Position numbers and translations under genes: made by a program. A DNA stretch of 63,858 nucleotides, filler included, from Dugesia japonica (taxonomy: Eukaryota), in the NCBI GenBank assembly GCA_001938525.1. It is 5 parts of 5 records of this genome, joined end to end, with 100 filler letters (N's around TTAATTAATTAA, not from the genome) between each part and the next. Parts side by side here need not be neighbours in the genome. Positions count along the whole stretch, not along the records: positions 19,418 to 30,620 come from MQRL01604592.1; 4 more parts are not named here. One strand, 5' to 3'. The number at the start of each line of letters is the position of its first letter. Position 1 is the stretch's first letter. Positions 18,110 to 44,345 of this stretch are shown piece by piece. The notes beneath the pieces are model-generated. The model searched no databases and was not told the origin of the DNA. It saw only the letters and a program-made list of their open reading frames with translations.

Positions 18110-19109
18110 CAAGGTTTGTACCCACATTTCGAATTTTTGTAAATTAATTTAAAATTATTATTAATTATACAAACCCTGAAATGATTTCAAACGATATAAA
18201 AATAACGATATAAGGATAATCGATTAATATTTAAATGCCCATTCAAAAATAGAAATTTCTACAATACTCAATATTCCTTTATCANCAATATATTCAATTA
18301 TTAATGTCAATTTATAAGAAGAGCGTGTTGAGAGTAAACTGAAGGATGGTCCTAGAAAGAAAGCATTGAACGAAGAGTATATAGCGGCTCTTAAAAATAA
18401 GATAGGCGAAGATGATAGTATAACACTTGCGCCATTAAGACAAAAGTTAATTGATTTATATAATGTTTCAGTGTAATTAAAAACAGTTTATAATTATGTA
18501 AATGGTTTTAGTTATTCACTTAAGAGAATAACATTGATTCCATCTAGAAGAAATGACGAACAATCAATAGAAACAAGGACTACTTACATCTGACGTTTCT
18601 TTGAAATTTTAAGATTACATGATGAATGTCTTTATGTGGCACAAAACCCGTGCAGGTAGTTACAGGCTTAAAATCACGCAATATTTCAGTTTCTTGTGCA
18701 TTAGCAAAAGCAGAAATTATCAAGCACCACGCCCAAACCACTCCTTATAATAGGATTACATTTGCTTCCTATATTAAAAATTTAATAACAACAATTGATG
18801 GACATGAGCGTGTAGTAATAATAATGGATAATATTCCATTTTATCGATCACGTCAAATACAGGAAATAATTAGTGAGGAAAGACTTCTTACATATTCATT
18901 TTTAGTGTCTATGTTTTATAATATATATACGAAAAGATTTTAATTCGTATTTTTCGAAATGAGCATAATACCATAATATATTTTAAATGTGTTTACAAAA
19001 TTTTAAAATTATGATTCAAAAATTTTTAATGAAGGTAAAAATGTTTGAAAAATAAGTACGAAAATTCGAAAAAAGGTTACAAAATTTCGAAATCTGAGTA
19101 CAAACACTG
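18110..19109 (+). mobile_element. IS630/Tc1-like (DDE_3) transposon, internally deleted, ~33-bp TIRs
   Basis: caaggtttgtacccacatttcgaatttttgtaa versus ttacaaaatttcgaaatctgagtacaaacactg, TA flanks; VIIMDNIPFY motif in ORF 18626..18943. Confidence 0.85.
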
Positions 19110-19317: not shown

Positions 19318-19417
19318 NNNNNNNNNNNNNNNNNNNNNNNNNNNNNNNNNNNNNNNNNNNNTTAATTAATTAANNNNNNNNNNNNNNNNNNNNNNNNNNN
19401 NNNNNNNNNNNNNNNNN
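19318..19417. other. Artificial contig linker 44N-TTAATTAATTAA-44N (also 30621-30720, 43037-43136, 54185-54284)
   Basis: Four identical 100-nt spacers containing a six-frame stop 12-mer. Confidence 0.95.
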
Positions 19418-19915
19418 AGGTTGGATTTAATAGTAAAGAAGCAGAGCGACCTAGCGGTCCAAACCAAGGCCCTGGAAGCAGAAGCCAAGCAACTGTTACT
19501 TAGGAAGATACAATTTTTAAAACAATACATAGCCGACCTTTCCCGCCAGATAGATAATCCAACTTGGGTCCAGTGGGTAGACAATGATGATGTCGCCACC
19601 TGTAATTTTTCGTTAAGGGACCCAACTCAGTGGTTAGACCTAGGAGCCTTGGATCTGTTGTAAATGTTTTATAAAATAGATAGCGTATCATTAATGGTGT
19701 TTTTTTTCTAATAACTTAAAAAGAAGATATATAGGGAAAATAATGAACCCGAATACAAAGGTTTGTGGGCGTGCACCTCTCATTAAGTGAGGGGTCAACC
19801 ACCATAAGCTGAATACCTAACCTAGGTGCGTTAGGTAAAATTCTTGAAAGGGTTCTTCTGAGCTGTTTTTCCCCAGCCACGGTTATCTTCACTCAACTCA
19901 GGTGGAACCAGAACA
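19418..19915 (+). mobile_element. 3' part of coiled-coil-ORF repeat unit with structured 3' end (copy A)
   Basis: ORF ...KIQFLKQYIADLSRQ...PTQWLD is homologous to ORF 20957..21181; 19746-19915 is homologous to the reverse complement of 20788-20958. Confidence 0.7.
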
Positions 19916-20307
19916 AATTAATCATTTTAATCCATTTATAATGGCTAAATTTCTTTATAATCAATTCTTTATAGTATTCATATAATATGTTGACCACGTT
20001 TAGTAGGCTAATTACTGCAAACCATAGAAATATTATTCTTAAATAAACAAAATAACTATGAAAACATTTATTATTCTAGAGATGTCAAATATTAGAACAA
20101 AAACTGTTTAAATTTACTGTATGCTATAAAGTATTTTATTATATTGAAATTATTGAGAAATAAAAATAATAATTATAAAATAATAGTGAAATCATATTTC
20201 ACTTAGAAGATATAATCACTTACAATCAAAGTAAAGCTCTATTTATTGACAAGTAATTTTTGCTAGTACATGTGAAGCACTGTGAACCATATTTTAGCAC
20301 CTTGAAT

Positions 20308-20346
20308 TCCGCATGCGACCTGCGAGCCGCATGTTTGAGACCTCTG
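20308..20346 (-). mobile_element. hAT Charlie/Buster-like terminus
   Basis: Reverse complement CAGAGGTCTCAAACATGCGGCTCGCAGGTCGCATGCGG, adjacent to atctaaac (nnnTAnnn-type target). Confidence 0.6.
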
Positions 20347-20787
20347 ATCTAAACTAATACATAAAAATTCAAAACCAAACATAAAAATTTTAATCCATAT
20401 TTTGGGATAGAACGCTAAAAATTTGGAGTAAGAAAGAGCAAAAATATTTCCGTACAAACGAAAAATATATACAAAAAAAGCAAAAAATTAGGAAAAAGAA
20501 TAAATGCTGGACCAGAAATTTGATTAATAGTATTAATATTATTATTATTACTATGTAATTATTATTATAATTATTATTAGATTATTATAAAATAAATGGA
20601 GAAAAATGAAAATTGGGCGCAGAGGATCCTATTTTGGAAGCTTAAAATAAATTTGACGACAAATAAGAGGAGAATGAATAAAATAAATAATTAAAATCAT
20701 ATAAAATGCTATAATAATATATTAAAAGGATCTCTACGACCGTGTATCTTTATTATAATCACGCTAATTAGCATTTAATAGTATTAT

Positions 20788-22560
20788 TGTTTGGGTTCCA
20801 CTTGAGTTGTGGGTAGAAAATAATGGCTAGGGAAAAAAACAGCCCTTAGGAGACCCCTCGAAGAATTTACCTAATATCCCTTATTAGGTTATTAGTGCAG
20901 AGTGGTTGACTTCCAAAGTGTACTTGGAGTGCTCACCCGTACACCTTTTGTTCGGGTTAAATGCTTCCCCGTCTCATTAAAATTATAAATAATAGTTCAA
21001 AAGGAAGATTTATTTTCACACAAACATCTGTTAACAACATGTAATTTAACGCCTCAGGGTCGAGCCACTGGGTGGGCTCGTCATTCGAAAAGTCGAATGC
21101 GGTCTCGTCGTATTCATTATTACACCAGGTCCAACTTTTTAATTCCAACCGGGTGGATAGGTCGGCGATGTACCTATTCAAGAAATCGATTTTGTTAACT
21201 AGTATCTGCTATTAGGTAGACGTATTCTGAGCACTAAATAGAAACAAAATTAAACATTAGAAACTCCGTTAGACTATATCAAATAAAACAAAATAGACAT
21301 AAAATTATAAAATGTAACAACTAATTATCGAAGTAAGGACTAATTTTTTTTATAAAAACCTAACAGCAATGAGAAGGTTAAGTATGAGAGATTCTAGTGC
21401 GACTTGTTTTCTCATTTCTACTAGATCAGACACCAATTTATTATCTCAGTCGTGGAGGGACCAGATAACGTCCGCGAACGTTTCTAATTGTTGTTTCCCC
21501 ACGCGCTCTTGGGCGTTTGAGGCTTCAGCTTCAAGTCAGTATGAATGGCACCTCTGCTTATATCGTTTTACTTTGGAATTCGCCGCCGCCGTGCCCGCTT
21601 CCCATTTTCTCTTTGCTAACTTGTACAGGTCACATATCAATGTCCTCACTACCTATCCGGACCTTTTTCGTTAAGCAACGGATCGATTAAGAAAAGAATG
21701 CACTAAATAGAATAACAATGTTCAAATTGATTAATGATTACAGTGACGGAGTAGATTCTCATGAGTAATGAAAATATTCACTGACAACTCGCAGTCTAGC
21801 AAATTTAGGTCCATCAGAAAAACAAAACAAAATAATATAAATATAATTTATAAATAAGGCTGCACATAGGATAAAACAATTCAATTAGATAAGACAAGAT
21901 TCATTAACAGATTATACTGGGAAACATTTATTAAAAATAACACAAGGAACACAGTCAGTTCTAAAAAACCATAATTAGTATTTGTTATGATAATGTAAAT
22001 GAAAGAAATTTAAAATGAACACGTGTAAATATTTATTTTTAGTAACTCGCAGATTGCGGATTGCGGTCTAAGTCCACTTCCCATGGTAAGGGGAACAATT
22101 CTTGGAAGCATCATAAATCGGTTTCATCTGGATGTTATATTAGGGGGGGGAGTTTTATTGTTTCCGACGAGCTGATCTTCGTGCCTTGTGGATAAAACGC
22201 AACGTGGCTCTTAGATCTGCTGGCATTCTCTAAATAAAATTAATAGTGAAGGTAAATTCAAGACAGTATCAAGGATATTCTTGTGATGCTCTCATCGTTT
22301 GTTGACACCATCGAACGGGCGTTGGAGGTAAAAAGTTAGTGTAAATAATAATAAATAGTCAATAAAATAAAAATATTGTTAGTGGGGACGCTGGGAAGCG
22401 TATACCAAACCCTACTTAAGATGAAAAACATCGGAATACTACCAAATGAGTGATGATGTCGGTATCCGTAATGTTGAGACCATAGTTACGCATAACACAA
22501 ATTGAATATATAAACAAACATACACATCCATAACATAAAAGGAGTATCATTGATAATCAA
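20788..22560 (-). mobile_element. Spliced coiled-coil-ORF repeat unit (copy B)
   Basis: Relatively GC-rich exon-like blocks (~22230-22030, ~21680-21361, ~21234-21030) separated by AT-rich stretches with GT..AG ends; KIDFLNRYIADLSTRLE...PTQWLD; ends ...GGAACCCAAACA. Confidence 0.6.
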
Positions 22561-24659
22561 ACCATCAATGTACTAATTTAATTATGTAATCTGAATGGTG
22601 TTGTATTGATTTTTACTTTTTAAAGTGAAACTTATGTTATTTATTGACTTTATTTTTCTCAAAATATGTAAATCGAAAAATTTAGGAATTTATTTGCAAT
22701 CTGTTTATTGTATTTATTTTATAATTTTAGAAATTTATTTGCAATCTGTTTATTTTATTAATTTTATAATTTGGAATTATTTAAAAAATTATTTTGAGTA
22801 ATGGAAAACATTATTGATTTAATGGTTAATGGAAATTAAATTATTTGAATAAGAAAATTTTTATTAAATTTTGTAAAGTTTTTTATTTTTATTTATTGGT
22901 CAAATTTATTTTTTATTTATTTTTATTTATATTGTTCTTGCATGAGAATGAAATCAGTATAAATACTGACTAATTTCATTCAGTTTTTAGGAAAATTTGT
23001 CATCTGGACTCTGACCTTTGTGGGAAGCAGCTCCAGTTTGATATCAAATTTGCTAATAAGGTTTTTAATAAGGTTATAAGTAGTCTGTATCTATTATACA
23101 TAAAAAATAAATTATTATTAAAATGTAGTTATTTAATTTATTTATATAAGGAAAAATAGACACATAATACGCTATTTATAATTTTCGATTAACGATATAT
23201 TTTATATAATATTTGTATCAACATACGAAAGGGAAAATCAACACCCATAAACTCAAGCATGTTTTCATTCAATAGTTATAAAATAACGAACCATAAATTA
23301 ACTTGTTGAGTAGAAATACTCTACAGTAACAATGGCAGTAATCACCAGTAACCGAATATTCCTAATTTTTTTAGCAGGAATATTAGCGATAATAATAACT
23401 TTAAAAATAATACCTATAACTATAGCAATATTTGACATAGCAATACAGGGGTAATAACAATAATTTTAATAACCATAACATCAATAGTAATGAAAGAAAT
23501 AGAAACACTAATAGCAATATTAATAATAATGATCATAATAATATTAATAACTATGGTACTAATAATAACCGTTTAAGTCTAATAATGAAGTTAATATTTA
23601 GACCGTAGACATTGTGATTAATATGCTAACATTAAAAACTGATATTAAGCCCATAACTATAGTAGTTTTATTAATATTAAAATTAATAATTAAGCTCATT
23701 AATTAAGGTTAAAAATAATAATAATACCTATATTATTCATAGGGCATACACATAAAAGAATTAATGAACACATATTAATTATCACTGTTTATGGTCTGCT
23801 TATTGTCGAACAATCCCGTTCACATTTGATCCATAAAGAACACAACAATTTTGTCATAATGATAAGATAGTAGGAAATTCTTCACTTAAGAATTGTATGG
23901 TTGATGGGAGTAATTCCAATACTTTGTCCTGTTTGCTGGCCATTGAGACGATAAACAATCATATTAACTCTCCGAATAAGTATAATGCCATTGATAGTTA
24001 TAAAACTATCATAATTAGAATGACACATGTTTCTGCTTTAAATATTAGGCTATTATTCTTAATGATGAAGATTGGGTGATCTCACGATCTCTTTCAACCG
24101 ATGTTAGTGTGTCTAGCTGATACTTGGCTAACTATGCATATTCTGAGAAACATTATGTGTGTACGATGATGACTGGTTCTAATAATGGATAGTTATTACT
24201 TTGCGATTCTGATAGGAGAAATAAGTCGTGATGTCATGCTGTCAAAGTTTGTTGGAAGTCCAGTGGAATTAATTCAATATCAAATTTGTAGGAGAGTTAT
24301 CAGACAGTGTTTACACTTATCTCAGCCAAATGAGTGAACCGACATTAAAAAATTAAAGGAACATATAAAAACTGCTGTGTTCTCTGAATCATCATGTGGA
24401 ATAATTANTCTACATTACAATCGGCTCAATAACAAAAATTAAATGGTTATCATAAAATTTTGTTATTCAACAATATATCAATATGTAACAACCATTTCAA
24501 ATCAAATAAATACTCACTCATAAAAATGATGAGATTCTGCAACTGAGAGTTTCCAAATAGTAAATAATGTTTCGTTTTTGGTTATTATAACTCGTAATAC
24601 GTAACTTAACTTAAAAATTGAAACTGTTTTCATCTAAAATCTGGGGGGTTCATATACCT

Positions 24660-29119: not shown

Positions 29120-29835
29120 TCACTTCAAAAGTTGTGATTTATTCTTCGATTTCGACTTCAAAGTAATATTTTCTCTAGATGGTAAGCAGCTAATCAATTT
29201 TCTTAACTCTACTAATCCAGGAAATAATTCGATATCGAGTCCATCTTTAACTAAAATTGTACCAAAACAAATTATCATATTTTCAGACGGTACTGCAATC
29301 ATTTCCATTTTTAAAATATTCTTTCTACTGATTTTCGGTTTTAAATACTTATATTTTTTGTTATATGATTTATTTTTACATAAAGATTTCATTTCTTCTT
29401 TATTAGCAANNNNNNNNNNNNNNNNNNNNNNNNNNNNNNNNNNNNNNNNNNNNNNNNNNNNNNNNNNNNNNNNNNNNNNNNNNNNNNNNNNNNNAGTTTG
29501 TTCGAATAGATTCCAAACAAAAATAAATAGCCTTTTATAACGTGATTTTCATAAAAACTTTGACCTAATTCATAGCTTTTCCTACAATTTTTCGATACAA
29601 CTCGAGTCTCGATATTATCGACAGTGGATAAAATCATATTATTATATGGTTTGTTGCAAACTGAACAATTTTGATTACAATTTAAATTATTAATTAAAAG
29701 ACAAAAATAATGGTAACGATGACCACATGATGTCAACAGTACTCCGAGTTCTGGTAGAATATTTTGTTGGCAGACTTCACAAACAGGATCAAATAAAGAG
29801 CTTGAGAAAGTTTCGTTTAAAGAATTATTTTCCAT
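29120..29835 (-). CDS. RING-H2 zinc-finger protein (putative E3 ligase), frame interrupted by N gap
   Basis: CEVC-x14-CGHRYHYFC-x11-CSVC (C3H2C3) in ORF 29389..29835; ORF 29120..29392 probably continues it beyond the gap. Confidence 0.7.
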
Positions 29836-30068
29836 TTGTTTACTTTTTAATTAATATCGACATTCTTATAAACATTCATAAATAAATAATTATTGCGCAA
29901 TTTATTGAAAATGCTATTTGTAATTCCGTAATTTCTTTAACACCAGATTTACGGATCTAATAAATATAATTTAAATAATTCATTTACAGAATTTTCAATA
30001 AATTATAAAGCGTAAATCATTTTTTCAGATTTTCTTCAATTTCCAAATATAATTCTAGTAATAATTGT

Positions 30069-30186
30069 AATTCATTTAATATAAAAGCTTTGATCAAAAT
30101 TTTGGTTTTTTTATTGATATCAAATTATTATCCAATATCAATAAAAAAACCAATATTTTGATCAAAGCTTTTATATTAAATGAATT
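30069..30186. repeat. Near-perfect palindrome, ~52-bp arms with 14-nt loop
   Basis: aattcatttaatataaaagctttgatcaaaat.ttggtttttttattgatat and its reverse complement, one mismatch. Confidence 0.92.
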
Positions 30187-32479: not shown

Positions 32480-33265
32480 ATATTAAAACAAACTTTCTAC
32501 AAAGTTTAAATGATTTTATAATTTCAATTGTGCAATTTCAATAATAAAATTAATGAAATAATTTTAAGAGCGATGTTGAATCCGTTAACTGAACATTAAT
32601 TTTAGGATTTAATGCCCTTATCAACAAAGCTTCACACATCACTCTCTCCCAATAATTATTAAATAGATTGCACAAGGTTTTAAAATCAGAACACCCGATT
32701 GATTTTATACATTTTTTCCGATGCTCAACAATATTACTATTACCACTATTTCGGATATGCTCTTGAATTCTAGTGCAGAGATGACAAGAAGTCTCTCCAA
32801 TGTATGTGGCGTTACACCCATTACATTTAAATTGATTGACCAAATAGGAGCACAAGCCTAAAGGGTTTATAGATTTATTATCGAACATATTTATAACCTT
32901 ATGAGATTGAGATACAACTTTTATATTTAAAATATTCTTAAAAGCACTTTCAATCGAAAGTTTGAGTTTTTAAAAGCCTTCAAAATAAGGCAAAGATAAA
33001 ACAATTTTATGATTTGTTTCTACAACCTCATATACATCAACACAAAATAGATCACTTTTAAGTTTATTCAAAGTTTCATAGACCAATTTGTCCATAAACA
33101 ATTTAGAATACCCATTATTATGAATTTAGTCTAGTAATTTTTTTAAACTCTTGTCTGCTTTGATAAAAGTAGAAAAGAGATACTAAGAACGATGACCTAG
33201 TCATTTAATCACTTAACTTTTATATTTTATGTCACTAAAGCTGTCAGAACTTCTATACAAACCAG
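32480..33265 (-). mobile_element. Penelope-like element 3' fragment (RT thumb + GIY-YIG endonuclease)
   Basis: ORF 32550..32888: FKCNGCNATYIGETSCHLCTRIQEH...EALLIRALNPKINVQ; TGLY motif remnant near 33260. Confidence 0.9.
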
Positions 33266-33269
33266 TAAT

Positions 33270-36200
33270 AGGGATAACTACGAATATGATTCAAGACCGT
33301 TGGTTAAACTATAGTGCAAATGATAAGAAAATACCAGTACAACAGAGTTTGATACCGGTGGAACAGAAAAAAGCAGTGATTACATAGGAAAAAAGTGGGT
33401 TATCATTAACAGTAGAACAAAGTTTTATATCAGTAGAATAAAAAAAACTAAGGTTTGTGCTTTTGAGTTGTGGATTTTAGTGGAAGTTTTGAGTTATAGT
33501 TTTAAGTTAACGTTTTGAGGCTTCGCAATAAAAAATATCAGCGCACATTTAATAAGCCAAAAATGTCGATTCATATTCGTAATTATCACTATTATTCTAG
33601 TTTTTGTTATTTTTAAAAATATAATAAAATTTTTTATGTATAAAATGAAAAAAATATATTTGTAATGATTTTAAAGAAAATTTTGATGGTAAAGTTAATT
33701 TATTTAAACATTTAGACTCGATTGAATATAGAAACATTTTTATTAATAAATGGGAATGTTATTGTTGTCATGAAAAATTTAAGACTACTAAAACTAAATT
33801 TAAAGAACATAAAAATTATGTCTTGTTAGCAAATTAAAACCTTCTGGTGTTGTTTATTCAAAAGAAGAAATTAAAGAACTTCATAAATATTATGTTAAAA
33901 ATTGTTTATATTGGAATCATCATAAAAAATAGTTTTTATAATTGTAGAAATAGATGTTGTTTAGTCAAACTAATTATTTAATTGTCAGTGTTTTAAAATA
34001 TATTTTGTGTATCAAGTTCCTTTTAGTTATCAAAACAACATGGCGTCACAATCAGTTTTAGAAGAATTTCTCAAATTCCTTTAAGAAAATACGAATTTCC
34101 ACAATCGATTTCAGATAAATGACAAAATATCGCACAAAAACGATCAAGGTAATTAACAATAATTAATGAGCTTAATTGTAGACAGGAAAATATGTCTATT
34201 TGCGAATATTTAACGACCGTTCGAGTTGCAGGCATGACAAAATTGCATAATCATGATGACATAGAACGAGAAGGGATCCTTATTAATATATTTTTAAAAG
34301 GGATTAACAATCCAAATGCTGCCAAAGCGACTGAATTGACGAAACTAAAATCACTAGAAGAAACGTTTAATCTTATTAAAAAAAATGAAGACAAAAAATC
34401 AGAAAATTATTATGTGAGAAAGAATACCAATGAGATAGACTGTCAAAGATCCAACAAAAATTGAAATTTTAAAGAAACGAGTCTCCGATTTAGAATATAA
34501 AATAAGACAGTTGGGAAAAAATCATGTTATTAAAAGTTACCTTAACCATGAAAAAACATAAAAAGACTTTAAGAATCGAATTGAATGCTATTATTGCAAA
34601 GAAGAAGGGCATATTGCAAGAAACTGTTTAAAACCTCTTAAATGAAATAAATCTAAGAATACTAGACATATATCCAGATTTTGCAAAAGTAATGACAAAG
34701 TCCAACAAAAACAAAATATCCGGCAATTTTAGGATACAAATTTTAATCACGAAATCGAATATTATGAAATTTTTTGTGAAAACGATAGTATTATTACTGA
34801 TCATAAAAGTAAAACCGAGGAAGAAAATGGATTATTTAAAATAGTAGCAAGTAGAAGAAAAACTATAAAACATTCTAGGCCAAAAATTAAATATCCAGAC
34901 GATATTATTCAAATTGAGCAATTCATCAATGGATCAAGGAAAACAAATCCAATAAAAGTGGCTACAAAAACGATGATATCAGAGAGCAGAAGTAAATTGG
35001 CGCCGAATAAACCAATTATTAGAGATTATATAGAAGCTAAAGATGAAAAGATATTCATTGATTTAGGAATAGAATCAAGTATTGTCAACTATGGACTATT
35101 CCAGAAACTTCAAGAAAGAAAATGACTCAAACTATATCGATCCAACAAAGTGTTAAATTGTGCTAAGGGCTCAAATATATAGGTGATTGGACATTAGACA
35201 TATTAAAAGTGAAAATAGGAAATAAAACTAGTAGAGTTAAAATGATAGTATGATAAATTATTTCCTCAAGTAATTATAGGCATTAAAGAAATGAAAAGTC
35301 TAAATATTGCGGTGATGCGAGCAAATGACTGCATTTTTGTAGATGAAGAACGATTCTCATTTATCTCTTAAGTAAGAGAGACAAAAAACTAGAACGCTCA
35401 GTTTATGAGAGTCCAAAAGCTGAGGCGAACCATTACAGGGGGTTCAAATTTGTAATATTAGAATACTTTTAGATAGAACAAATTCATTAGTTATAGTTTT
35501 CCCGAATCGAACAGACACTTTTGTATTAGATACTGACGCAAGCAATCATGCTATGGGAGCAGTTCTGAACCAGTTACAAAATAATGAAGAAAACGTTATC
35601 TGCTATGGATCAAAAAAATTTACAAAGACAGAGCAGATGTACTGTGTAACTAGTATAAAACTCTTGGCAGTTTAAATGTTTTTGGAACACGATTTAAACA
35701 TTACCTTTTAAGCAAAAAAATTAGCATACACACGGAACATAAAAGTTTAACATGAATTCTGAATTGTACAAAGCCAAATATCTCCCAATATTGCTCATGG
35801 ATAGCAGAATTAGAGGCTTATGATTTTGAAATTCAACATAGACCTAGGAAATTTTATGTGAATGCGGACGCTTTATCTAGAGAGAAACAATGCAAACAAT
35901 GCAAAAAAATACCTGTAAAAGAAACGGAATATAAAGGTGGTAAAATCAATAGTTGAAAACGAGAAAATAAATTATCATGAAATCAAAGAAATTGAGAAAG
36001 AACGAGAAACCTACGATACGAATCGAGTAAATGAATTATTAAATTATTTTCACAATAGATTGGGACACCCAAGTGGAAGACAGACTCTGCACAATGCACA
36101 AAGATACCACCAGTGGAATAACATGAAAATCGACATAGATACATTCATTAACAATTGTATTCTATGTGTAGAAAGAAAAGAAGGAAATAAACTAGGATGT

Positions 36201-37020
36201 AAGATAAAATTAGCATTCAACGACGCAGAGCCATTTGAAACAATATGTGTTGACATTAACATGACCATTAACAACAGTAGCCGGTTATTCCTACATCTTA
36301 GGCATAAAAGACGCATACTCCAGGTATGTATCATTAATCCCGATGAAAAGTATTACCGCAGAAGGGATAAAAAAATCTTTACTAGAAAGATGGATAGCAT
36401 ATTTTGGAATTCCTAAAATCATTCATTCAGATAATGGAACACAATTTAAGTCAGCATCGATGAACATACTATGCAAGGAGCTACAGATAAGTCAATTCTA
36501 TTCGTCTCCATATTGCCATGAAGGAAATGAACTAATATAGCTGGCATTCAGAACAGCAAAAGATAAATTATTTATGATGAGCCAATCAAATAAACAAAAT
36601 TGGGTAGAAACTTTACCATTTGCAGAAATGAGCATGCAATCAGCTAAATCAAAGAAACACAATATTTCAACATTCCAAACAATATTTGGTACTGAAATGA
36701 GATTAAGTACTAAGATCGCTTTAGGAGAAATAAAGAATCAGAAAACAAATGAACAGGCAAAGAAAGAGTTTGCAGAAAACAATATTAAGGAGAAAAGGAA
36801 CCAGCTAAAAATACCGGAAGAACCACGAACAGAGCAAAACAAAGCTAAAGTAAGGGATTTGGTTACAGTGAAAATCAACGAGAGTGGTATGCTTAAGAAG
36901 AGATTCTCAGGACCATGGGAAGTTAATAACATTTTACCTAATAATAATTTAGAATCTGAATCTTCATCAGTGGAACAACTAGACCTAATAAATTGGACTT
37001 GGAGAAAACCGAATATCAAC
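33270..37020 (+). mobile_element. Ty3/Gypsy LTR retrotransposon relic lacking RT
   Basis: LTR end AACA + PBS TGGCGTCAC at 34041; gag knuckle CYYCKEEGHIARNC (~34587-34630); protease IFIDLGIESSIV; RNase H FVLDTDASNHAMGAVL; integrase HHCC (HNRLGH...CILC) and IHSDNGTQF; GPW motif near 36910. Confidence 0.9.
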
Positions 37021-37610
37021 CAAGAATCATTAAAAAAAGCTTAAAAAATATATTTGAAGAAAATAATAGAAATTCAAATTATATTTGGTTTGATAAAGAG
37101 TCCGCAATTAGATCAAAATATTTTAATAAATTTCTTAAAGAAAATGAGATAATTTATACCATACAAAAATTAGGGTAAATCGGTTGTTGCTGAAAGATTT
37201 ATTAGAACTTGAAAAACTAAAATGTGGAAATATTTTACATGAGTTGGAAATCTAAAATGGAATAAAAACTTGTTAGATAAAATTGTTGATGAATATAATA
37301 ATACAATTCATTCAAGTATAAAAACAACACCAAAAGATGTTAGTAAAAATCCTGAAAACATAAAATAAATAATCGAAGATCATAATCATAAAAATGATGA
37401 TTTAAAAAAGAAAATAAATTTAAAATTGGAGATCGAGTTAGAATTTTTAAATATAAATATAAATTTGAAAAAGTTTTTACAGGATAAATGAACTATTTGT
37501 AGTAACCCAATTTTATAAAACAAAACCTTTTACTTATGGAATTACTGATTTAAAAAATGAAAATATTCTAGGTAGATTTTATAGCAATGAACTTCAGAAA
37601 ATTGTTTTAA
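37020..37610 (+). pseudogene. Polinton-type rve integrase (decayed)
   Basis: YIWFDKE..., KSVVAERFIRT.KTKMWKYF, DEYNNTIHSSIK.TP, FKIGDRVRI, GRFYSNELQK. Confidence 0.88.
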
Positions 37611-43476: not shown

Positions 43477-44345
43477 AGATAGTAGTGCATAACGTTAAAC
43501 TCCATAGTTATTTAAGAATAATTTTTCTATACATAAGTGTATCAGTATCAACCAATCAAATTACAAACGTGTGTGTATGACCTTAAAAATGGCTTAGTAT
43601 CCACCAATTAGATTACGCGAAAAATGCTTTGTTCTCGTGAATGTGTGCATGAATATTTACGTCTGGTTTAGAGAAATGATAACTCATAGTCGTTGTTTTT
43701 TAAAATGATGATTCATTCATAGCAACTGATATCCTACATAATTTTTATAATCACGTATATTTTAATAAACAACCTTCAACTTTGTGAGTAATGCTATTTG
43801 TTATTTTGTTTTAATTATTGACTTTTTAATTTGTTTTTAATTTTTAAATAAAGATTTTGGTTCTTAAATTTTTAATATATCTTTCAAATTTAAATTTTAA
43901 GTTTTAAATTTTTTAACTTTAAATTTAATTTTTAAACTTCAACTTTTAAGTGGAATTTTACTTTTTGAATTATACGGTTTGAAACATGCCAGAGTTATGG
44001 TCATGCAAAAAGGAATTGTCCCGAGAATGCGCAAGTAGAATGATAGGCCTGTTACATGAATTGATATATATGTAAAGGTTTTCCAAGCAAGAAACCACTA
44101 AAAGTAGATTATGGACGGATATTGTATGCAAAAGATCTAAAAAATATGGATATAAGATAAATAGATTATGGGTTGTTTCGGATGACTTGTCTTTTTGTCT
44201 TAATTAAGTATAAATATTCATGCAGGCTACATGAGAACAAAGAACTTCTCTCGTAATCTAATTGGTAGATACTGAGGCACTTTCAAGATCATCCGCACAT
44301 GCCCCAAATTTGATTGGTTGATCCTAAGACACTTGTATAAAATGA
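43477..44345. repeat. Inverted pair of ~170-bp CCAAT-containing repeats (43530-43700 and 44180-44345) enclosing a gag knuckle fragment
   Basis: caaccaatcaaa...agtatc.accaattagattacg...ctttgttctc...gcatgaatattta occurs in both orientations; CQSYGHAKRNCP at ~43988-44025. Confidence 0.75.

What the first reader, a model, noticed from the sequence alone, without database searches (positions are those of the whole stretch)
19746..20958. Conserved, covarying ~170-nt structured element capping two divergent ORF units
Seen: 19746-19915 (+) and 20788-20958 (-) align along their length (AACCCGAA..AAAGGT..GGG..GCAC-[hairpin]-GTCAACCAC..ACCTAA-[loop]-TTAGGTAAA.TTCTT.A.GGGT..GCTGTTTTT.CCC.AGCCA...CAACTCA.GTGGAACC..AACA). 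Hairpin 1 has changed sequence but still pairs (CCTCTCA/TGAGGGG versus TCCAAG/CTTTGGA). Hairpin 2 shows a compensatory C-G to T-A change (ACCTAAC/GTTAGGT versus ACCTAAT/ATTAGGT) with unrelated loops. The 5' AACCC could pair with a downstream GGGT(T/C). Inference: pairing conserved despite sequence drift suggests a selected RNA/ssDNA structure. The shared AACA end looks like a Gypsy LTR U5 terminus, so this may be an undescribed cis-element (packaging, priming or 3'-processing) or a ribozyme.
Basis: partly seen in the sequence, partly recalled or inferred. Interest (0 to 1): 0.75.

Follow-up and report, generated by a model that had tools for sequence, protein, structure and literature searches.

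The report
Folded end of a jumping gene
Two related 185-letter stretches each follow a small unknown gene and end a likely very abundant mobile repeat; they are predicted to fold as RNA and are most likely the right-hand end of a retrotransposon's long terminal repeat, not a new ribozyme.

Summary
The similarity is real: 19733-19915 (+) and 20971-20788 (-) share 120 of 186 columns, far above shuffles. Each lies just downstream of a homologous small gene (46% amino-acid identity, third codon positions 39%, no database match), and the two units face each other tail to tail. Public DNA contigs pile about six times deeper on the block than on the gene, and stop matching at its end, so it is the conserved terminus of a multi-copy mobile element. 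Three local helices form in both copies, with compensatory and G-U changes, but two copies do not give significant covariation (25-65 of 400 matched simulations do as well). No Rfam family, hammerhead core, second repeat, primer site, target duplication or shared AATAAA was found; RNA runs hold only a few partial reads. Best reading: the R-U5 end of a long (about 1.7 kb) gene-bearing LTR, left as solo or truncated copies (0.5). Rivals: a short 3' LTR behind a purine tract, a recombinase-type element end, or an unclassified element with a functional RNA end.

The parts
19418..19663 (+). 3' part of a small protein-coding gene, cut on the left by an assembly gap (19318-19417); predicted long helix followed by an acidic, tryptophan-rich tail
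19664..19732 (+). AT-rich spacer with a U-rich tract; same length as in the minus unit within 6 nt, 46% identical
19733..19915 (+). conserved terminal block, copy 1: purine tract 19733-19740; AACCCGAA 19746-19753; stem 19760-19765/19805-19810 carrying hairpin 1 (19776-19794); hairpin 2 19815-19836; U/C tract 19866-19874; possible 12-bp stem 19851-19862/19897-19909; end AACA 19912-19915
19916..20787 (.). not part of the element: AT-rich DNA holding two other multi-copy repeats into or beside which the two ends sit
   Evidence: depth about 700-1900 at 19970-20409 and 20630-20739
20788..20971 (-). conserved terminal block, copy 2: purine tract 20970-20964; stem 20945-20940/20899-20894 with hairpin 1; hairpin 2 20889-20869; small hairpin around the U/C tract; end AACA 20791-20788
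21030..21208 (-). last exon of the homologous gene (46% amino-acid identity to the plus unit); the frame runs on to 20957
21209..21364 (-). likely phase-0 intron (GT at 21364 or 21403, AG at 21210-21209, pyrimidine tract, in-frame stops); absent from the plus unit
   Evidence: no spliced read seen
21365..21667 (-). preceding coding segment in the same frame, broken by three stop codons (read with X)
21668..22497 (-). upstream part of the minus unit: multi-copy, GC-raised patches; likely left edge near 22470-22500 (TGTTATG at 22497, no target duplication)

Best explanation
Each block is the conserved terminus of a multi-copy repeat that carries a small gene, and is likely the R-U5 end of an unusually long (about 1.7 kb) retrotransposon LTR whose U3 part holds that gene, left here as solo or truncated copies of two old subfamilies. 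In an intact element the block would be the first 185 nt of the genomic RNA: the purine tract would mark the start, the hairpins and alternative long-range stems would serve packaging or priming of reverse transcription, and the terminal CA would be the integrase site. Shown: similarity, conservation above third codon positions, multi-copy terminus, a gene under purifying pattern. Inferred: LTR identity, R-U5 role, RNA fold, intron, function.
For: 4121 contig pieces of one DNA run lie on 3.3 kb; depth 29,965 on the plus block against 4,287-5,074 on the gene and 3.55 for an exact-match contig; 62 contigs leave the window at the block's end into AT-rich sequence of low agreement. Both copies end in AACA, and the majority end fits the 3' integrase consensus YNYAACA (PMC3601003, passages). 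That paper says R and U5 are more conserved than U3 and links this to stem-loops. The minus unit's GC-raised, multi-copy span ends near 22500, where TGTTATG fits TGTTRNR. A long gene-bearing solo LTR explains why no second repeat lies in the window. A 7-bp purine-tract/pyrimidine-tract pairing is possible in both copies, like the Ty1 1-7/264-270 pairing needed for reverse transcription (PMC4974528, passages). The window is rich in RT, integrase and transposase remnants.
Against: No gag-pol, primer binding site or second LTR is linked to either unit. No target duplication flanks the favoured left edge, and TGTTRNR is expected by chance about once in 600 nt here (my estimate from composition). 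Neither window copy fits YNYAACA exactly. AATAAA, well conserved in animal Gypsy LTRs, is missing from both blocks and present upstream only in the minus unit. Reads of the neighbouring repeats match from 19911 and carry similar letters near 20787 (8 and 4 reads, one contig), so the terminal letters may belong to the target. One contig leaves the minus unit at 22471, not 22497, while depth stays at 40 in 22500-22609. 95% of depth has C at 19780, which breaks a hairpin-1 pair unless 19790 also changes (not among the 40 of 489 rows shown). The long-range stems differ between copies and exclude one another.
Confidence: 0.5

Rival explanations
1. The block is a whole short (172-bp) 3' LTR; the purine tract 3 nt before it is the polypurine tract, and the gene is an accessory ORF at the end of the internal region of a Gypsy-like or non-autonomous element.
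For: TG at 19744 to CA at 19915 with a purine tract 3 nt upstream matches the ta-TRIM layout (198-bp LTR, PPT three bases upstream; PMC4558846, passages). Family-wide matching starts at 19731-19732 in 31 and 18 contigs.
Against: The minus copy has TT, not TG, there; neither start fits TGTTRNR or is inverted to the end; the tract is only 7-8 purines; no 5' LTR in the window; solo copies should start at 19744 and no such loose end is among the 14 of 731 shown.
Confidence: 0.15
2. The block is the right end of a tyrosine-recombinase element (DIRS, PAT, Ngaro or Crypton type) that integrates through a short core shared with the target; the fold would act on a single-stranded intermediate.
For: Neighbouring-repeat reads carry the terminal letters at both 3' junctions; AACA also stands at 22475-22472, where one contig stops matching; no target duplication. 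DIRS ends share a trinucleotide with the circular junction (PMC3266345, passages) and use single-stranded cDNA (PMC7192593, abstract).
Against: No recombinase, RT, inverted or split repeat or internal complementary region in the 1.7-kb unit; the contig that stops at 22471 does not extend over that AACA; the junction evidence is 12 reads and one contig.
Confidence: 0.12
3. An unclassified non-autonomous retroelement (non-LTR or Penelope-like) whose folded 3' end is the RNA signal, or a self-cleaving RNA, used by an enzyme supplied in trans.
For: The block follows a stop codon like a 3' UTR; depth falls toward the 5' side of the minus unit (953 to 20-150); a near-repeat of about 10 nt bounds the block at both ends; Terminons combine coiled-coil ORFs with a folded 3' end (PMC6431247 section 8).
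Against: No hammerhead core, no Rfam ribozyme, no poly(A) or tandem tail; upstream depth is flat, not steadily falling; no piled RNA ends (table 6 empty).
Confidence: 0.15
4. The block is the terminal inverted repeat of a Ginger-like DNA transposon with an intron-bearing gene.
For: Ginger elements have TGT termini, 40-270 bp TIRs and introns (PMC2836005, passages).
Against: No partner repeat at the far end of the minus unit; no integrase-like domain; both window copies fail TGTNR; flanks are not CCGG/CCGT or RTATAY; a cut-and-paste end needs no hairpins.
Confidence: 0.05
5. Two ordinary host paralogues with a shared 3' UTR element.
For: Codon pattern of a real gene and a likely intron.
Against: Thousands of diverged contig pieces, a sharp shared terminus, stop codons in the minus gene, and almost no RNA from this locus.
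Confidence: 0.03

Closest known systems
R-U5 regions of animal Ty3/Gypsy (Metaviridae) and retroviral LTRs (PMC3601003, passages)
   Same: CA terminus near the YNYAACA consensus; right part more conserved than the left; conservation tied to stem-loops
   Different: no shared AATAAA, no target duplication or linked gag-pol found; the left part holds a gene with a likely intron
Ty1 5' long-range pseudoknot, 1-7 with 264-270 (PMC4974528, passages)
   Same: a 7-nt purine tract able to pair with a pyrimidine tract over 100 nt downstream
   Different: here both strands lie inside the repeat, the second stem could not form together with the first (loop of 0-1 nt), and the pairing has probability 0.52 and 0.02
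Retroviral LTRs with a gene in U3 (MMTV sag, HIV nef; recalled, no call)
   Same: sense ORF ending shortly before a structured R-U5
   Different: no sequence relation; host is an AT-rich, TE-rich eukaryote; class of element not proven
ta-TRIM of taeniid cestodes (PMC4558846, passages)
   Same: block length near 200 nt, purine tract 3 nt before a TG, CA end
   Different: ta-TRIM has two LTRs, a primer site and no ORF, and is highly transcribed
Retrozymes (PMC4918200, abstract) and Terminons (PMC6431247, section 8)
   Same: folded RNA in the terminal part of a non-autonomous or accessory-gene-bearing retroelement
   Different: both are defined by a hammerhead ribozyme, absent here

Membership tests
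Ty3/Gypsy-type LTR | 3' end CA within YNYAACA | tested here: inconclusive
   both copies end in AACA but miss the second Y; the majority end fits; junction reads hint that these letters may be target-derived
Ty3/Gypsy-type LTR | 5' end TGTTRNR | tested here: inconclusive
   fits at 22497 and 22536, near the GC drop, but is common by chance; plus unit cut by a gap
Ty3/Gypsy-type LTR | 4-6 bp target-site duplication | tested here: not met
   none at 22497, 22520 or 22536; a 4-bp match at 22810 lies outside the GC-raised span
Ty3/Gypsy-type LTR | conserved AATAAA | tested here: not met
   absent from both blocks; one upstream site in the minus unit only
Ty3/Gypsy-type LTR | other copies followed by a primer binding site and gag-pol, or paired repeats | not testable with these tools
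   no genome held; neither window copy is followed by TGG; one pair only
Multi-copy mobile element | many diverged copies with a common terminus | tested here: met
   4121 pieces, 62 contigs diverge at the end; one DNA run laid
Short LTR with PPT (TRIM-like) | TG start 1-3 nt after a long polypurine tract | tested here: inconclusive
   TG in the plus copy, TT in the minus copy; tract 7-8 nt
DIRS/PAT/Ngaro | inverted or split terminal repeats, RT and tyrosine recombinase | tested here: not met
   none within the 1.7-kb unit; the unit may be truncated
Ginger DNA transposon | paired TIRs around a Gypsy-like integrase, TGTNR ends | tested here: not met
Retrozyme / Penelope-like | hammerhead ribozyme in the terminal repeat | tested here: not met
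   no core on either strand; no Rfam hit
Selected RNA structure | significant covariation in a deep alignment | tested here: inconclusive
   two copies only; not significant

The most novel reading that the evidence does not exclude
A new class of animal mobile element, not an LTR element: a 1.7-kb unit with a spliced gene of unknown family and a 185-nt switch-like RNA end (two exclusive long-range folds, bounded by a short near-repeat) that cleaves itself or guides insertion at a short core shared with the target, present in thousands of copies.
Probability: 0.12. Interest if true: 0.82.

Novelty: new variant of a known kind. Interest (0 to 1): 0.42.

Why it matters
If it is an R-U5 end, it gives a rare deep natural alignment (likely hundreds to thousands of copies in several subfamilies) for solving an animal retrotransposon leader structure by covariation, plus an LTR-borne gene family with no known relative. 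If it is not an LTR, it is a new kind of element with an RNA-defined end. Either way it is a repeat end, not a host non-coding RNA gene.

Tried and rejected
No whole genome is held, so copies could not be collected. Rfam: 0 at gathering score over the window; 3 weak matches at E 0.9-8.2, none on the block's core. Protein searches for the gene: none of 139 and none of 6 candidates; 1 of 1.84 billion representatives at E 7.5e-4, a 736-aa repeat protein judged chance; Atlas no usable hit; Pfam only sub-threshold matches; PDB sequences 0; Foldseek none at E 0.001 on a mostly single-helix model. Related loci: 0 confirmed of 257, 591 and 123 pattern matches in viral, metagenome and genome contigs. 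DNA patterns: 0, 14 and 2 matches; all 16 were chance by inspection, blastn and the covariance model. No RNA holder listed among 24 runs. A search with another window ORF found nothing; the organism was not identified and the planarian papers were read only on a guess from composition. An xrRNA-like pairing of hairpin-2 loop with the strand after P1 (topology recalled) gives only 4 of 5 pairs in each copy and competes with other stems. A Fanzor-like reading (recalled) was dropped: the gene end has no zinc finger or RuvC motif. My first intron register (donor 21403) was not among the 8 best of 591 registers; homology runs on to about 21383. DNA folding gave z -0.46 and -1.64. The sigma-70 scan is irrelevant to a eukaryote. 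Ten literature searches listed no description of this element; papers cannot be searched by sequence, repeat libraries were not available, one genome paper was not held and no supplements were read, so it may already be a named repeat.

Full report
Observation. The two stretches align from end to end. blastn gives 75% over 89 nt at E 3e-9, and the local score is 164 against a maximum of 69 in 1000 shuffles. The shared block starts at a purine tract, 19733 and 20971, and ends in AACA at 19915 and 20788; 120 of 186 columns are identical. A DNA profile and a covariance model built from the pair find no third copy in the window. Rfam has no match. The window is AT-rich eukaryotic DNA with reverse transcriptase, integrase and transposase remnants; no genome is held.

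The gene. Each block lies 70-80 nt behind the end of a homologous ORF on the same strand, so the units are tail to tail. The shared 56 codons give 46% amino-acid identity, identity by codon position 0.62, 0.71 and 0.39, and 14 of 26 identical residues use different codons: the pattern of a real gene. The predicted model is a 44-residue helix and a low-confidence acidic, tryptophan-rich tail. No relative was found in any protein, family, structure or contig search. The plus gene is cut by an assembly gap. The minus gene has a preceding segment in the same frame with three stops, separated by an AT-rich stretch with GT and AG borders. The best register against the plus protein runs to about 21383, which favours the donor at 21364 over 21403. 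The intron is inferred; no spliced read or clean joint was among the 15 of 31 joints shown.

Copy number and ends. I laid 4 of 24 listed runs, one DNA and three RNA, at 80% likeness. The DNA run gave 4121 pieces, 2245 of them under 90% alike. Depth is 29,965 on 19750-19859, 4,287-5,074 on the plus gene and spacer, 2,027 on the minus block, 20-953 along the minus unit, and 3.55 for an exact-match contig. The tool warns that depth is no copy number; the contrast still indicates a large family in which the block is the part best kept between subfamilies. 62 contigs leave the window at the block's end, with the same four terminal letters at the same distance and then AT-rich sequence of low agreement (0.59). 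31 and 18 contigs join at 19731-19732, just before the purine tract. The minus unit stays multi-copy and GC-raised to about 22500. RNA runs gave 12 of 10,544,396, 86 of 13,591,480 and 13 of 11,583,297 reads, 110 of 111 only partly matching, with no piled ends: these two copies are not seen as transcripts, though such libraries can miss small or non-polyadenylated RNA.

Conservation and fold. The block (65%) beats third codon positions (p 0.001) and matches first and second positions (p 0.71); spacer and flank reach 46% and 42% against higher backgrounds. Three local helices have mean pair probability of at least 0.5 in both copies: the stem under hairpin 1, hairpin 1 and hairpin 2. The one-sided changes use G-U on the gene's sense strand. 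Further shared pairings exist: purine tract with the U/C tract (7 bp), CCAC(C/U) with (G/A)GUGG (5 bp, one double change), a small hairpin round the U/C tract, and a 3' stem with 12 of 12 pairs in the plus copy and 9 of 12 in the minus copy. Several exclude one another, and the plus copy switches between them according to whether the purine tract is included. None of this is significant with two sequences: column shuffles are beaten on total pairs (0-4 of 400), but simulations that keep one copy and redraw its differences reach the observed counts in 25-65 of 400 for helices of 5 bp or more, and in 17-50 of 400 for 4 bp or more. Folding z-scores are -1.7 and -0.5.

How it most likely works. 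An LTR reading fits most facts. Animal Gypsy and retroviral LTRs end in YNYAACA, keep R and U5 better than U3, and owe part of that to stem-loops (PMC3601003, passages). If the whole 1.7-kb unit is one LTR with the gene in U3, no second repeat is needed, since solo copies are common. The block would then be the RNA leader; a purine-tract pairing like the one Ty1 needs for reverse transcription (PMC4974528, passages) is possible in both copies. These steps are inferred. Against them: no target duplication, no shared AATAAA, no linked primer site or pol, an uncertain left edge, and junction reads suggesting that the last four or five letters may also occur in the target. So it works like an R-U5 end, but membership is not shown. 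I give 0.5, with 0.15 for a short 3' LTR behind a polypurine tract (layout as in PMC4558846, passages), 0.15 for an unclassified retroelement with an RNA end (compare PMC6431247 section 8; PMC4918200 abstract), 0.12 for a recombinase element (PMC3266345 passages; PMC7192593 abstract), 0.05 for a Ginger repeat (PMC2836005 passages) and 0.03 for host paralogues.

Novelty. Ten paper searches listed no description; passages of PMC6839031, PMC8532177, PMC11410931 and PMC11381356 did not bear on it. Repeat libraries and supplements were not seen. Earlier scan notes held no look-alike and one generic parallel in another genome, where a structured stretch proved to be an LTR with a likely intron (untested lead). 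Verdict: a real, selected terminus of an abundant element with an unknown gene; most likely a new variant of an LTR end; ribozyme unsupported. Interest 0.42.

Noticed in passing
window 266-475 and 798-1007: Two 210-nt copies (94%) on either side of a gap, both ending in CCCCAACA on the + strand and then diverging; on the - strand this opens a decayed ORF. The octamer occurs only at these two places (0.27 expected) and resembles the block's terminus, hinting at a shared integrase-type end in this genome.
   Followed up: partly
window 19746-19757 / 19904-19915 and 20958-20949 / 20797-20788: A near-repeat of about 10 nt bounds the block at both ends in each copy and can compete for the same partner strand.
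   Followed up: partly
window 22472-22497: 26 nt that begin TGTT and end AACA on the + strand, exactly where one public contig stops matching the minus unit.
   Followed up: partly
window 30069-30186: A 118-nt near-perfect palindrome (92%).
   Followed up: no
window 43525-43659 and 44211-44342: Inverted repeats of about 135 nt (79%) around 550 nt, like a miniature transposon.
   Followed up: no
window 34153-37044 (+), 51829-54046 (-), 62597-62995 (-): Decayed Gypsy-like gag-pol remnants (integrase zinc finger and RT domains by Pfam); no copy of the block is attached to them.
   Followed up: partly
window 32550-32969 (-), 60420-60848 (+), 62179-62586 (+): ORF remnants that look like Penelope-type endonuclease and RT pieces (motifs recalled; no Pfam hit).
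   Followed up: no
window 5693-6100, 18626-18943, 56157-56471: Tc1/mariner-like transposase remnants (DDE_3 above cut-off at 18626; the others weak or by eye).
   Followed up: no
window 29389-29850 (-): An intronless RING-finger ORF beside an assembly gap, possibly carried by a mobile element.
   Followed up: no
window 19318-19417 and other N runs: Gaps carry a TTAATTAATTAA spacer: an assembly artefact, which creates false inverted repeats.
   Followed up: yes
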